Assembly (NCBI RefSeq): GCF_048403405.1
Contig: NZ_CP183129.1
Strand: one strand, 5' to 3'
DNA length: 64,000 nt
Source: Escherichia coli
GTDB lineage: Bacteria; Pseudomonadota; Gammaproteobacteria; Enterobacterales; Enterobacteriaceae
A program made the translations under genes and the position numbers. Shown piece by piece: positions 36,871 to 57,464 of the stretch; within the stretch, counting starts at the first letter, position 1, and every line of letters begins with the position of its first letter. The notes below the pieces were generated by a model that saw nothing but the letters and a program-made list of their open reading frames with translations, had not been told where the DNA came from and searched no databases.

Positions 36871-36886
36871 AGCAATAATTGTGCCA
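36871..36886 (-). promoter_or_regulatory. Sigma-54 promoter (-24/-12) for the hyp operon
   Basis: Minus strand reads TGGCACAATTATTGCT, a perfect TGGCAC-N5-TTGC match, about 30 bp upstream of hypA. Confidence 0.55.
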
Positions 36887-37051: not shown

Positions 37052-37513
37052 ATGACTATTTGGGAAATAAGCGAGAAAGCCGATTACATCGCACAGCGGC
37101 ATCGTCGCCTACAGGACCAGTGGCACATCTACTGCAATTCGCTGGTTCAGGGGATCACGTTATCGAAAGCGCGCCTGCATCACGCCATGAGCTGCGCGCC
37201 GGACAAAGAACTCTGTTTCGTCCTTTTTGAACATTTTCGTATTTACGTCACCCTGGCGGATGGCTTTAACAGCCACACCATCGAGTATTACGTCGAAACA
37301 AAAGATGGTGAAGACAAACAGCGGATTGCGCAGGCGCAACTGAGCATTGACGGCATGATTGATGGCAAGGTCAACATCCGCGATCGCGAACAGGTTCTGG
37401 AACACTATCTCGAAAAAATCGCTGGCGTTTACGACAGCTTATACACCGCCATTGAAAACAATGTGCCGGTGAATTTAAGCCAACTGGTAAAGGGACAAAG
37501 CCCGGCAGCATGA
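37052..37513 (+). CDS. hycA: Formate hydrogenlyase regulatory protein HycA
   Basis: 153 aa ORF, first gene of the hyc operon. Confidence 0.9.
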   Translation: MTIWEISEKADYIAQRHRRLQDQWHIYCNSLVQGITLSKARLHHAMSCAPDKELCFVLFEHFRIYVTLADGFNSHTIEYYVETKDGEDKQRIAQAQLSIDGMIDGKVNIRDREQVLEHYLEKIAGVYDSLYTAIENNVPVNLSQLVKGQSPAA

Positions 37514-53193: not shown

Positions 53194-54327
53194 CTATACC
53201 GGCAACGTTTTCAACAATCCAAACGCCTCTTTCATCCGATCCTCACTGACCACAAAGGCGCGAAGCTGGTCAGCATCATCAACACCGCGCGCCACCATTC
53301 CCTGGTGTTCGGTATTAATTTGCCAGCGTAAATCCTGACGCTGGGTTTCGCCTGCCAGATGCAGCGGTAATTCCGGCGTTTTGATTTTCACCAGCATCGC
53401 CGGGAGTTTCAGCGGCGTGTTATTGCCGAGAAGATTTTTTGCCAGCACCATCGCGCTAAGTTGAATCGGCTGGAGGAACGGCAATACCTGACCGTTAATT
53501 TCCGCGCAATCGCCCAGCGCATAAATATCGGCATTACTGGTTTGCAGATAACTATCGACGCAAACGCCGCGATTAATCGTCAGCCCGGCGCGTCGTGCCA
53601 GGGCGGTTTCCGGGCGCAGCCCGGTGGCGGCAATTACCGCATCCACTTCGATGCTGCGCTGGCGGTCCAGCGTTGCCTGAATGCCAGAATCCGCTTTTTC
53701 CAGCCCCTGCAACTGAGATTTTAACAGCAGATGAACGCCCATCTCCGTCAACCGATGCTGTAAGCGGCTGCTTACTTCCGGTGGCATTAACGACGCCAGA
53801 ATACTGGCAGCGTTGTCGATTAGCGTGACCGCTTTGCCTGCACGACAAAAATCCATCGCCAGTTCGCTACCAATCAAACCACCGCCGACAATCAACACGC
53901 GTCGGGCATCCCGCAGTTGCGTTTCACAGGCGCGATACTCTTGCTGACTATTTAACGTCAGCATTAACTCACGTCCGGGCACTGGCGGGACAAAGGCGCT
54001 GGCACCGGTTGCCAGCACTAACTTGTCGTATTGCCACTGATTATTCTGACTTTTCACCACATGGGCTTCGGCATCGATATCCGTCACCCAGGTTTGCGGA
54101 AACAGGCGCAGATTAAACTGCTCGGCAAATTCACCCGCTGTCTGGCGGGTAAGGTCATCGGCACGTTGCCCCTGGCTGATAACATGGCTGAGATCCGGTT
54201 TGTTGTACTCATCCATGCTGTCGGCGGCAATCAGGGTTAATGAAATACAGGCGTCCTGTTTGCGAATATTTTTCACCAGTTGGCGGGCGGCGAAGCCCGA
54301 ACCAATGATCACAATGCCGTTGCTCAT
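53194..54327 (-). CDS. norW: NADH:flavorubredoxin reductase
   Basis: 377 aa ORF with FAD-binding GSGFAARQ N-terminus; overlaps norV by 4 nt. Confidence 0.9.
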
Positions 54328-55763
54328 TTTGCCTCCGATGCCAGTTCGTCAAAGACGTCTTTGCCAAGGGAGCATTCCGGGCACAGGAAGTTATCCGGGA
54401 CTTCACTCCACGGCGTTCCTGGCGCAACGTCCTGCATTGGCTCGCCTTTTGCCGGATCGTAAATCCACTGGCAGACGCTGCACTGCATCCGTGGGCCGAG
54501 GTCAGCCGTCGTGTTGGCAGAGGTTTCTTCTTTAACCACCGTATTCACCGTGCTCTGCGGCAGCGGCGCGAGCGCCCACTGACGGGCGATTTCGCGACCG
54601 TGTTCACGACATAACTCCAGAGCGTCCTGGTCCGGTCGCCATTTGGCTTTCAGGCTAAGCGACATTTCGAAACCCGCATCCTGCAGGCGCGTGGAAAGAC
54701 GATCCACCGCACCGCCGCTCCAGCCGTGAGAGCCGAAAGCACTGGCGCGTTTGTTACGAAAGCGTAAACCAGTCATCTCCTCCACCAGCCCGGCGATTTT
54801 TGGCATCATCACGTTATTCATCGTCGAAGTGCCGACCAGCACGCCTTTTGAGCGGAAGACATTGGTCAGGATTTCGTTTTTATCGCTTCGGGCGACGTTG
54901 AAAATTTTTACCGCCACGCGTGGGTCGGTTTCCGCAATACCCTGGGCGATAGCGTCAGCCATCATGCGGGTGTTATTCGACATGGTGTCGTAGAAAATGG
55001 TGATTCTGTCTTCCTGATAATCCGCCGCCCATTTCAGGTACAGCTCGACAATTTGCGTCGGGTTATCGCGCCATACCACGCCGTGAGAGGTCGCTATCAT
55101 ATCGACTGGCAAGTTAAAGCCCAGGATCTCGGTAATTTTCGGCGTTACCAGGCGGCTGAACGGCGTCAGGATATTGGCGTAGTAACGCTGGCACTGCTCG
55201 AAAAGCTCAGTCTGATCCACTTCATCGTTGAAAAGATGCTCGTCGCAGTAGTGCTGACCGAAAGCATCGTTACTGAACAGCACCGCGTCGCCTGTCAGGT
55301 AAGTCATCATGCTGTCCGGCCAGTGCAGCATTGGTGTTTCGACAAAAATGAGCTGTTTGCCGTTGCCGATATCCAGCATGTCGCCAGTTTTCACCACATT
55401 AAAATTCCACTCCGGATGATGGTGATGACCATTTATCGAGTCGATAGCGTTGGCAGTACAGTAGATCGGCGTATCGGGAATTTGTGCCATCAGTTCGGTC
55501 AGCGCCCCGGCGTGGTCCTCTTCTGCATGGTTAATCACGATGTAATCGATATCCGCCAGATCGATTTCATTACGCAGGTTCTGCACAAATTCGCGGCTGA
55601 ATTTATGGTCAACGGTGTCGATCAGCACGTTTTTTTCTTCGCGGATGAGGTAGCTGTTGTAGCTGCTGCCGCGCAGCGTTTTATATTCTGTGCCGTGAAA
55701 ATCACGCACTTCCCAGTCACGTTGACCAACCCAATGAATGTTATTTTTCACCACAATAGACAT
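54324..55763 (-). CDS. norV: Anaerobic nitric oxide reductase flavorubredoxin
   Basis: 479 aa ORF with C-terminal rubredoxin CxxC motifs. Confidence 0.95.
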
Positions 55764-55810
55764 AGCAACCTCAATTTATTCAGCGTGTTCTAAAAAGATG
55801 TCTTGCTAAT

Positions 55811-55826
55811 TGCAGATTGCGTGCCA
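55811..55826 (-). promoter_or_regulatory. Sigma-54 promoter (-24/-12) of norVW
   Basis: Minus strand reads TGGCACGCAATCTGCA, about 48 bp upstream of the norV start. Confidence 0.6.
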
Positions 55827-55881
55827 GTTTTTTATCTGATTGTTTTTACTCTATAAATAAAATTGTGCTCATTAATGAGTA

Positions 55882-55937
55882 GTCAAAATGACTATTAATC
55901 AAATGGTCGATATGACAATATCTATAGTCAAATTGAC
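55882..55937. promoter_or_regulatory. Three NorR-type enhancer sites (GTCA-N3-TGAC)
   Basis: GTCAAAATGAC (55882-55892), GTCGATATGAC (55906-55916), GTCAAATTGAC (55927-55937) between divergent norV and norR. Confidence 0.6.
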
Positions 55938-55949
55938 AGTGAGGCAAAG

Positions 55950-57464
55950 ATGAGTTTTTCCGTTGATGTGCTGGCGAATATCGCCATCGAATTGCAGCGT
56001 GGGATTGGTCATCAGGATCGTTTTCAGCGCCTGATCACCACGCTGCGTCAGGTGCTGGAGTGCGATGCGTCTGCATTGCTGCGTTACGACTCGCGGCAGT
56101 TTATTCCGCTTGCCATCGACGGGCTGGCAAAGGATGTACTCGGTAGACGCTTTGCGCTGGAAGGGCATCCACGGCTGGAAGCGATTGCCCGCGCCGGGGA
56201 CGTGGTGCGCTTTCCCGCAGACAGCGAATTGCCCGATCCCTATGACGGTTTGATTCTCGGGCAGGAGAGTCTGAAGGTTCACGCCTGCGTTGGTCTGCCA
56301 TTGTTTGCCGGGCAAAACCTGATCGGCGCATTGACGCTCGACGGGATGCAGCCCGATCAGTTCGATGTTTTCAGCGACGAAGAGTTACGGCTGATTGCCG
56401 CGCTGGCGGCGGGAGCGTTAAGCAATGCGTTGCTGATTGAGCAACTGGAAAGCCAGAATATGCTGCCGGGCGATGCCGCGCCGTTTGAAGCGGTGAAACA
56501 GACGCAGATGATTGGCTTGTCGCCAGGCATGACGCAATTGAAAAAAGAGATTGAGATTGTGGCGGCGTCCGATCTCAACGTCTTAATCAGCGGTGAGACG
56601 GGAACCGGTAAGGAGCTGGTGGCGAAAGCGATTCATGAAGCCTCGCCACGGGCGGTGAATCCGCTGGTCTATCTCAACTGTGCCGCACTGCCGGAAAGTG
56701 TGGCGGAAAGTGAACTGTTCGGGCATGTGAAAGGGGCGTTTACTGGTGCTATCAGTAACCGCAGCGGGAAGTTTGAAATGGCGGATAACGGCACACTGTT
56801 TCTCGATGAGATCGGCGAGTTGTCGTTGGCATTGCAGGCCAAGTTGCTGCGAGTGTTGCAGTATGGCGATATTCAGCGTGTTGGCGATGACCGCAGTTTG
56901 CGGGTCGATGTGCGCGTGCTGGCGGCGACTAACCGCGACTTACGCGAAGAGGTACTGGCAGGGCGATTCCGCGCTGACTTGTTCCACCGCCTGAGCGTGT
57001 TTCCACTTTCGGTGCCGCCGCTGCGTGAGCGGGGCGATGATGTCATTCTGCTGGCGGGGTATTTCTGCGAGCAGTGTCGTTTGCGGCTGGGGCTCTCCCG
57101 CGTGGTATTAAGTGCCGGGGCGCGAAATTTACTGCAACACTACAGTTTTCCGGGAAACGTGCGCGAACTGGAACATGCTATTCATCGGGCGGTAGTACTG
57201 TCGAGAGCCACTCGCAGCGGCGATGAAGTGATTCTTGAGGCGCAACATTTTGCTTTTCCTGAGGTGACGTTGCCGCCGCCAGAAGCGGCGGCGGTGCCCG
57301 TTGTTAAGCAAAACCTGCGTGAAGCGACAGAAGCGTTCCAGCGTGAAACTATTCGTCAGGCACTGGCACAAAATCATCACAACTGGGCTGCCTGTGCGCG
57401 GATGCTGGAAACCGACGTCGCCAACCTGCATCGGCTGGCGAAACGTCTGGGATTGAAGGATTAA
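55950..57464 (+). CDS. norR: Anaerobic nitric oxide reductase transcription regulator (sigma-54 enhancer-binding protein)
   Basis: 504 aa ORF with AAA+ GETGTGKE motif; divergent from norVW. Confidence 0.95.

What the first reader, a model, noticed from the sequence alone, without database searches (positions are those of the whole stretch)
55811..55937. norV sigma-54 promoter with three upstream GTCA-N3-TGAC sites
Three evenly spaced 11-bp inverted repeats abut the norR start, and a sigma-54 element lies about 50 bp upstream of norV. The architecture matches the known NorR-activated norVW promoter and is well conserved here.
Basis: partly seen in the sequence, partly recalled or inferred. Interest (0 to 1): 0.15.

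Follow-up and report, generated by a model that had tools for sequence, protein, structure and literature searches.

The report
Known E. coli norVW nitric-oxide promoter
This is the ordinary, already well-studied control region that lets E. coli switch on its nitric-oxide-detoxifying norVW genes, and here it is almost identical to the laboratory K-12 version.

Summary
The window is E. coli. Its 186-bp norR-norV intergenic region (55764-55949) holds a sigma-54 -24/-12 element, TGGCACGCAATCTGCA, on the minus strand at 55826->55811. It also holds three 11-bp inverted repeats, at 55882-55892, 55906-55916 and 55927-55937.

Two small corrections are needed:
- The middle repeat is GTCGATATGAC, not GTCA-N3-TGAC. 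K-12 has the same base, and the published core is GT-N7-AC.
- The spacing is 24 and 21 bp, not strictly even.

The region matches the published, footprinted 66-bp K-12 enhancer fragment at 65 of 66 bases. The sigma-54 motif is identical to the one found by ChIP-seq. NorR, NorV and NorW are intact.

The triple array occurs once in the 64 kb and never arose in shuffled sequence. It keeps 21/24-bp (or 20/24-bp) spacing in 79 of 80 upstream regions examined, 78 of 79 of them from other species' genomes. It is present in 5425 of 5426 complete E. coli genomes.

Mechanism, shown in K-12 and inferred here: NorR assembles on the three sites, senses NO, and uses ATP to open the sigma-54 promoter.

Verdict: already known, low interest. 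Side notes include a non-conserved fourth palindrome inside norV, one isolate with a 45-bp enhancer deletion, and non-GC -12 elements in many genera.

The parts
53194..54327 (-). norW, NADH:flavorubredoxin reductase (377 aa, intact). Second gene of the regulated operon.
   Evidence: ORF list. NCBIfam NF003437 scores 681 bits against a cut-off of 392. Nine substitutions relative to K-12.
54324..55763 (-). norV, flavorubredoxin NO reductase (479 aa, intact). First gene transcribed from the promoter.
   Evidence: ORF list. NCBIfam NF003954 scores 1044 bits against a cut-off of 711. Four substitutions relative to K-12.
55769..55772 (-). Shine-Dalgarno GAGG, 5 nt upstream of the norV ATG.
   Evidence: Read directly from the sequence. 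The GAGG block is conserved across species.
55800..55800 (-). Predicted norV transcription start, giving a 37-nt leader. This is an inference.
   Evidence: Counted from the -12 C at 55812. It agrees with the 37-nt distance listed for norV in the sigma-54 ChIP-seq table (PMC4591121). It was not mapped here.
55811..55826 (-). Sigma-54 -24/-12 promoter element TGGCACGCAATCTGCA. GG is at 55825-55824 and GC at 55813-55812.
   Evidence: Identical to K-12 and to the ChIP-seq motif. Invariant in 8 diverse E. coli. TGGCA is at least 95% conserved across the 80 distinct upstream sequences aligned.
55827..55881 (.). AT-rich spacer between the promoter and the enhancer. In K-12, IHF binds between the norV start site and the NorR sites.
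   Evidence: PMC2831303 reports the IHF binding. The whole intergenic region is 32% GC against 53% for the window. No match to the IHF consensus with one mismatch or fewer falls here. The best candidate is AATCAGATAAAAA on the minus strand (55829-55841) with 2 mismatches. This spacer holds most of the E. coli polymorphism.
55882..55892 (.). NorR enhancer site 1 (promoter-proximal), GTCAAAATGAC, centred at -87 from the predicted start.
   Evidence: Site 1 was assigned by aligning the published 21-bp site-1 oligo by eye to window 55876-55896, where it differs only at 55896. An exact search for that oligo found nothing, and the 66-bp NorR123 comparison over the same stretch shows that single difference. 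The oligo sequence is from PMC2831303.
55906..55916 (.). NorR enhancer site 2, GTCGATATGAC, centred at -111. It has one mismatch to the perfect palindrome, as in K-12.
   Evidence: Listed in the Rodionov table as TATTGTCAtATcGACcATt.
55927..55937 (.). NorR enhancer site 3 (norR-proximal), GTCAAATTGAC, centred at -132, ending 12 bp before the norR ATG.
   Evidence: Listed in the Rodionov table as cAcTGTCAATTTGACtATA.
55950..57464 (+). norR, the NO-sensing sigma-54 enhancer-binding protein (504 aa, intact). It is transcribed divergently from norVW.
   Evidence: NCBIfam NF003451 scores 824 bits against a cut-off of 476, covering residues 2-503. Pfam finds GAF, Sigma54_activat and AAA lid domains. 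Walker A GETGTGK is at residue 215 and GAFTGA at 262. Residues R75, D96, D99, C113 and D131 are present.

Best explanation
This is the canonical NorR-dependent, sigma-54 promoter and enhancer of the E. coli norVW operon.

How it works, as established in K-12:
1. Sigma-54 RNA polymerase sits in a closed complex on TGGCAC-N5-CTGCA, 48-63 bp upstream of norV.
2. NorR, encoded divergently next door, binds the three GT-N7-AC inverted repeats centred about 87, 111 and 132 bp upstream of the start site.
3. The three sites together scaffold assembly of a higher-order NorR ring, probably a hexamer, and switch on its ATPase.
4. IHF binds the AT-rich spacer. Bending there is thought to bring the ring to the polymerase.
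5. Without NO, the GAF domain holds the AAA+ domain inactive. NO binding to the GAF-domain iron centre relieves this.
6. ATP hydrolysis then opens the promoter, and norVW (flavorubredoxin and its NADH reductase) is transcribed to reduce NO.

Site 3 ends only 12 bp before the norR ATG, so norR transcription must start within or pass through the enhancer. The same sites therefore also act on norR expression.

Shown here: the sequence elements, their statistical significance, their near-identity to K-12, their conservation, and the integrity of the three genes.

Inferred from K-12 experiments: NorR and IHF binding, NO dependence, and the transcription start site.
For: Identity of the locus:
- The window is E. 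coli. It is 100% identical to strain C4 and 99.0% to K-12 C600 over 55700-56000, with norV and norR annotated under the match.

Identity to the studied K-12 region:
- 213 of 216 bases match K-12, and all sites and the sigma-54 element are unchanged.
- 65 of 66 bases match the published NorR123 enhancer fragment (sequence from PMC2831303).
- PMC2831303 reports three sites with core GT-N7-AC. Mutating any one abolishes norV-lacZ induction. IHF binds between the start site and the sites. The DNA stimulates ATPase activity and ring formation.
- The sigma-54 ChIP-seq motif upstream of norV is identical (PMC4591121).
- The comparative table lists the same three E. coli sites and the same promoter (PMC1274295).
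- Genomic SELEX found the norR/norVW spacer to be NorR's only target (PMC8249747).

Statistics:
- GTCA-N3-TGAC has 5 matches against 0.72 expected.
- This is the only triple array in 64 kb. GTC-N5-GAC triples arose in 0 of 200 shuffles.

Conservation:
- 79 of 80 upstream regions (the window plus 79 loci from other species' genomes) keep three GT-N7-AC sites at 21/24-bp (76) or 20/24-bp (3) spacing.
- The GTC/GAC half-sites and TGGCA are the most conserved columns in the alignment.
- The region is present in 5425 of 5426 complete E. coli genomes.
- In a sample of 8 alleles, polymorphism avoids the sites and the promoter.

Proteins:
- NorR, NorV and NorW are equivalog hits and intact. NorR keeps its Walker A and GAFTGA motifs.
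Against: Nothing contradicts this reading. There are some limits:
- No binding or expression experiment exists for this exact allele. It carries three SNPs relative to K-12 in non-site positions: 55865 and 55869 in the IHF spacer, and 55896 flanking site 1.
- The IHF site cannot be placed by the consensus WATCAR-N4-TTR with one mismatch or fewer.
- No sigma-70 promoter for norR was found by the simple scan.
- The original footprinting paper (Tucker 2004) and the Hutchings 2002 paper were not available to read.
Confidence: 0.97

Rival explanations
1. The three inverted repeats act mainly as operators for norR autoregulation. NorR bound there would block or modulate the divergent norR promoter, and enhancer function would be secondary.
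For: Site 3 ends 12 bp before the norR ATG and site 1 ends 57 bp before it. The norR promoter and leader must therefore overlap the sites. PMC8249747 states that NorR regulates both norR and norVW. PMC1274295 proposes negative autoregulation through NorR sites for norR2 in Vibrio.
Against: Mutating any one site abolishes norV activation in K-12 (PMC2831303), so enhancer function is demonstrated. The fixed 65-66 bp distance from site 1 to the -24 element in the 36 loci where the element was located points to constraint from the norV promoter. The two roles are compatible, so this adds to the main explanation and does not replace it. No norR sigma-70 promoter was located.
Confidence: 0.3
2. The palindromes and the sigma-54-like motif are chance matches in an AT-rich intergenic region and have no regulatory role.
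For: The intergenic region is only 32% GC. Loose GT-N7-AC triples arise in 34 of 200 shuffled windows.
Against: Stricter GTC-N5-GAC triples arose in 0 of 200 shuffles. Spacing and half-sites are conserved in 79 of 80 upstream regions while the surrounding spacer diverges. The region is identical to experimentally characterised K-12 DNA.
Confidence: 0.01
3. A different regulator, such as FNR or NsrR, acts through these repeats instead of NorR.
For: norV responds to anaerobiosis and nitrite. NsrR sites precede norVW in Photobacterium (PMC1274295 supplement).
Against: The best FNR-box match in the intergenic region has 3 of 10 mismatches. The repeats fit the NorR core, not the NsrR motif gATGyAT-N5-ATrCATc. 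Methylation protection shows NorR binding at these exact sequences in K-12. Genomic SELEX puts NorR at this spacer.
Confidence: 0.02

Closest known systems
E. coli K-12 norVW promoter (norVp) with NorR enhancer sites 1-3 (Tucker et al. 2004; Tucker et al. 2010, PMC2831303)
   Same: Same organism, genes and order. The sigma-54 element is identical and all three NorR sites are identical. 65 of 66 bases match across the enhancer and 213 of 216 across the intergenic region and its flanks.
   Different: Three single-base differences lie outside the sites: 55865 G/A and 55869 T/C in the IHF spacer, and 55896 T/C next to site 1. This exact 150-bp allele is a minority one; only 163 of 5426 records are at least 99% identical.
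Salmonella, Citrobacter and Kluyvera norR-norVW intergenic regions
   Same: Three GT-N7-AC sites at 21/24-bp spacing, the same distance to TGGCAC-N5-CTGCA, and divergent norR.
   Different: The central bases of the sites and the spacer sequences differ. Site 2 is usually a perfect GTCATATTGAC, whereas E. coli has GTCATATCGAC.
Ralstonia eutropha norAB, and Pseudomonas and Vibrio hmp, NorR-dependent promoters
   Same: Tandem GT-N7-AC NorR sites upstream of a sigma-54 promoter that controls an NO-detoxifying gene (PMC1274295; PMC2831303).
   Different: The target genes differ (norB/norA, hmp, hcp), as do the number and spacing of sites in some species. These were not examined here.
Other sigma-54 enhancers, such as the NtrC sites at glnAp2 (from general knowledge)
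   Same: Upstream activator sites about 100 bp from a -24/-12 promoter, oligomerisation of an AAA+ activator on DNA, and DNA looping.
   Different: According to PMC2831303, the strict need for three sites is unique to norVW. The signal is NO sensed by a GAF-domain iron centre, not phosphorylation.

Membership tests
NorR-dependent sigma-54 norVW promoter/enhancer (E. coli type) | Sigma-54 -24/-12 element (TGGCAC-N5-TTGCW-like) correctly oriented upstream of norV | tested here: met
   TGGCACGCAATCTGCA on the minus strand at 55826->55811, 48-63 bp upstream of the norV ATG. Identical to the K-12 ChIP-seq motif.
NorR-dependent sigma-54 norVW promoter/enhancer (E. coli type) | Three tandem inverted repeats with core GT-N7-AC upstream of the promoter | tested here: met
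   Sites at 55882, 55906 and 55927. They are the only three in the intergenic region and form the only such array in 64 kb.
NorR-dependent sigma-54 norVW promoter/enhancer (E. coli type) | Sequence correspondence to the experimentally bound K-12 fragment | tested here: met
   65 of 66 bases match the NorR123 fragment. 213 of 216 match K-12 C600.
NorR-dependent sigma-54 norVW promoter/enhancer (E. coli type) | Adjacent divergent norR encoding a GAF-AAA+-HTH enhancer-binding protein with an intact GAFTGA motif | tested here: met
   NF003451 scores 824 bits over residues 2-503. GAF and Sigma54_activat domains are found. GAFTGA is at residue 262 and Walker A at 215. The Pfam HTH_8 domain was not listed at E<=0.001, but the equivalog model covers the C-terminus.
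NorR-dependent sigma-54 norVW promoter/enhancer (E. coli type) | Intact norV-norW operon downstream | tested here: met
   479-aa NorV and 377-aa NorW, both full-length equivalog hits.
NorR-dependent sigma-54 norVW promoter/enhancer (E. coli type) | IHF site between promoter and enhancer | tested here: inconclusive
   No IHF-consensus match with one mismatch or fewer in 55827-55881. The region differs from K-12, where IHF binding is reported, at two bases. Among the 36 loci where the spacer could be delimited, 33 had a match with 0 or 1 mismatch.
NorR-dependent sigma-54 norVW promoter/enhancer (E. coli type) | NorR binding, and NO-, RpoN- and ATP-dependent activation | not testable with these tools
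   Known for K-12 (PMC2831303, PMC2941729). Inferred here from sequence identity.

The most novel reading that the evidence does not exclude
The fourth perfect GTCA-N3-TGAC palindrome, 55716-55726 inside norV codons 13-16 and about 80 bp downstream of the start site, could be an auxiliary NorR contact in E. coli lineages. It might help wrap DNA around the NorR ring or modulate elongation. The evidence makes this unlikely. The palindrome depends on a synonymous GGT codon found in only 23 of 80 sequences. It is also cut in half by the end of the 266-bp fragment that suffices for ring assembly in vitro.
Probability: 0.03. Interest if true: 0.3.

Novelty: already known. Interest (0 to 1): 0.05.

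Why it matters
It matters little for discovery. The result confirms that this window carries a complete norR-norVW NO-detoxification module that is presumably functional, with the textbook three-site enhancer. The by-products are small leads for specialists. They include a natural single-site enhancer deletion in one clinical isolate, and non-GC -12 elements in over half of the enterobacterial norV promoters examined.

Tried and rejected
- I tried to read the original footprinting paper (Tucker 2004, PMC516610) and Hutchings 2002 (PMC135257). Neither is held. IHF site coordinates, the mapped start site and norR autoregulation therefore rest on secondary statements.
- IHF consensus scan: no match with one mismatch or fewer between the promoter and site 1. 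The IHF site could not be placed.
- Sigma-70 scan for a norR promoter: one weak match, wrongly oriented, at chance level.
- Rfam scan of the whole window: no RNA family hit.
- FNR box search in the intergenic region: best match has 3 mismatches. Rejected.
- Fourth palindrome in norV (55716-55726) as a conserved NorR site: rejected. The GT half depends on a Gly13 GGT codon present in 23 of 80 sequences, with GGC in 39. The K-12 266-bp fragment starts at 55720, inside the palindrome.
- My first sigma-54 pattern (GG-N10-GC) missed 43 of the 79 loci scanned. The cause was real -12 variation, not loss of the promoter.

Full report
**Observation**

The window around the finding holds norW (53194-54327, minus strand), norV (54324-55763, minus strand) and norR (55950-57464, plus strand). 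A 186-bp intergenic region lies between them at 55764-55949. All three proteins are full-length and score as NCBIfam equivalogs far above the curated cut-offs: NorR 824 bits against 476, NorV 1044 against 711, NorW 681 against 392.

The sigma-54 element TGGCACGCAATCTGCA lies on the norV strand at 55826->55811. That is 48-63 bp upstream of the norV ATG. TGGCAC-N5-YTGCW matches three times in 64 kb against 0.31 expected.

The three inverted repeats are:
- Site 1: 55882-55892, GTCAAAATGAC.
- Site 2: 55906-55916, GTCGATATGAC.
- Site 3: 55927-55937, GTCAAATTGAC.

Two details need correcting. Only two of the sites fit GTCA-N3-TGAC exactly, because site 2 reads GTCG. The spacing is 24 and 21 bp, not strictly even. 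Site 3 ends 12 bp before the norR ATG.

**More than chance?**

- The three sites are the only GT-N7-AC matches in the intergenic region.
- They form the only triple array with 19-26 bp spacing in the 64-kb window.
- Triples of the stricter GTC-N5-GAC form arose in 0 of 200 locally shuffled windows. The loose GT-N7-AC form gave at least one triple in 34 of 200.
- An independent repeat finder picked up the site 1 / site 3 repeat as a 24-nt direct repeat 45 bp apart. It also found the palindromic arms.

**Identity with the known system**

The window is E. coli. The 301-bp stretch 55700-56000 is 100% identical to strain C4 and 99.0% to K-12 C600. It is found in 5425 of 5426 complete E. coli genomes, always under norV and norR annotations.

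The alignment with K-12 shows three differences in 216 bases, at 55865, 55869 and 55896. None lies in a NorR site or the sigma-54 element.

The 66-bp 'NorR123' oligonucleotide of Tucker et al. (PMC2831303) is described there as the minimum DNA containing the three footprinted sites. It matches window 55877-55942 at 65 of 66 bases. The single difference, at 55896, lies in the spacer next to site 1. The paper's 21-bp 'site 1' oligo identifies the promoter-proximal repeat as site 1.

Other published data agree:
- The sigma-54 ChIP-seq study lists CTGGCACGCAATCTGCA upstream of norV, 37 nt from the gene (PMC4591121). This is identical to the window and consistent with a start near 55800.
- The comparative-genomics table lists the same three E. 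coli sites and the same promoter (PMC1274295).
- Genomic SELEX found the norR/norVW spacer to be the only NorR target in K-12 (PMC8249747).

**Conservation**

A scan of one genome per species with NorV returned 80 loci, mostly from other Enterobacteriaceae.

- 79 of the 80 upstream regions long enough to test (the window plus 79 of those loci) carry three GT-N7-AC sites. Start-to-start spacing is 21/24 bp in 76 and 20/24 bp in 3.
- In the alignment, the GTC/GAC half-sites, the TGGCA of the -24 element and the TG of the -12 element are the best-conserved columns. The spacers diverge.
- Where the -24 element was located, it starts 65-66 bp after site 1.
- Across eight diverse E. coli alleles, variation falls at 55808, 55827, 55838, 55843-55869, 55896 and 55901. 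None falls in the sites or the 16-nt promoter element.

**Mechanism**

The following is established for K-12 in PMC2831303 and PMC2941729 and inferred here from near-identity.

1. NorR binds the three sites. Mutating any one abolishes norV induction in vivo.
2. Enhancer DNA stimulates NorR ATPase and stabilises a ring-shaped higher-order oligomer.
3. IHF binds between the start site and the enhancer.
4. The GAF domain represses the AAA+ domain until NO is sensed.
5. ATP hydrolysis then converts the closed sigma-54 polymerase complex to an open one.

The NorR encoded here differs from K-12 at seven positions. It keeps Walker A (GETGTGK, residue 215) and GAFTGA (residue 262). It also keeps residues R75, D96, D99, C113 and D131, which I recall from the literature as candidate iron ligands.

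norR starts 12 bp after site 3, so its own transcription must run through the enhancer. This is compatible with the reported regulation of norR by NorR. I could not locate a norR promoter.

**Rivals**

- Chance is excluded by the shuffles and by conservation.
- A different regulator is not supported. There is no FNR box, and the motif differs from that of NsrR.
- A role in norR autoregulation is plausible, but it adds to enhancer function and does not replace it.

**What could not be settled**

- The IHF site cannot be placed by consensus.
- The start site and NorR binding were not measured for this allele.
- The primary footprinting paper was not available.

**Verdict**

This is an already known, textbook regulatory region carried in a minority but functionally unremarkable E. 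coli allele. Interest is low.

**Seen in passing**

- A fourth perfect palindrome lies inside norV. It is not conserved (Gly13 is GGT in 23 of 80 sequences).
- One clinical isolate (AF3) has a 45-bp deletion between the site 1 and site 3 repeats, leaving a single site.
- In 44 of 80 distinct upstream sequences the -12 dinucleotide of the norV promoter is GA or GT instead of GC.
- A sigma-54-like motif lies inside hycA at 37121-37136.

Noticed in passing
window 55716-55726 (inside norV, codons 13-16): A fourth perfect GTCA-N3-TGAC palindrome (GTCACGTTGAC) lies about 80 bp downstream of the predicted norV start. It depends on a synonymous Gly13 GGT codon found in only 23 of 80 sequences examined. 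It is also truncated in the K-12 266-bp fragment that suffices for NorR ring assembly. It is probably a by-product of the conserved GQRD coding sequence.
   Followed up: yes
L084 (E. coli isolate AF3, NZ_OZ547117.1), locus 2465-2605; corresponds to window 55889-55933: This isolate has a 45-bp deletion in the norR-norV intergenic region. It fuses NorR site 1 to site 3 (GTCAAAA|TGAC) and removes site 2, leaving one site. The deletion is consistent with recombination or slippage between the 45-bp-spaced direct repeats. It is the only one of 5425 genomes with less than 80% coverage of the region. From K-12 site mutants it should be non-inducible. An assembly error has not been excluded.
   Followed up: partly
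Loci L009-L082, about 45-65 bp upstream of norV: In 44 of 80 distinct upstream sequences, including Klebsiella, Enterobacter, Raoultella and Kosakonia, the norV promoter reads TGGCAC-N5-TTGAT or TTGTA. The -12 dinucleotide is GA (36) or GT (8) instead of GC, while the -24 TGGCA is invariant. The window, two loci carrying an E. coli-identical norV (L003, L004), Citrobacter, Salmonella and Kluyvera carry the canonical CTGC.
   Followed up: partly
window 37121-37136 (+) and 36871-36886 (-): There are two further TGGCAC-N5-YTGCW matches. The one at 36871-36886 (minus strand), TGGCACAATTATTGCT, is the known hypA sigma-54 promoter and matches the ChIP-seq motif. The one at 37121-37136 (plus strand), TGGCACATCTACTGCA, lies in the sense direction about 70 bp inside hycA (37052-37513). 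It was not found in the main text of the ChIP-seq paper.
   Followed up: partly
window 55843-55869, plus 55896 and 55901: E. coli polymorphism in the intergenic region concentrates in the AT-rich spacer between the promoter and site 1, the region where IHF binds in K-12. The window's exact 150-bp allele is rare: 163 of 5426 records are at least 99% identical, and most are 95-99%. Whether the alleles differ in output is unknown.
   Followed up: partly
L087 (E. coli O157:H7 strain 86-24): In this strain norV is annotated as only 1236 nt and carries no gene name. That is consistent with the norV deletion I recall for some O157:H7 lineages. The window's norV is the intact 1440-nt form.
   Followed up: no
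L082 (Xenorhabdus japonica), L064 and L004: L082 shows only two GT-N7-AC sites at the expected positions; the third is degenerate or shifted. L064 is labelled Chryseobacterium but carries an enterobacterial norV (91% identity). L004 is a contig of a 'Citrobacter' MAG with a norV 100% identical to E. coli. The last two are probably contamination or binning errors.
   Followed up: no
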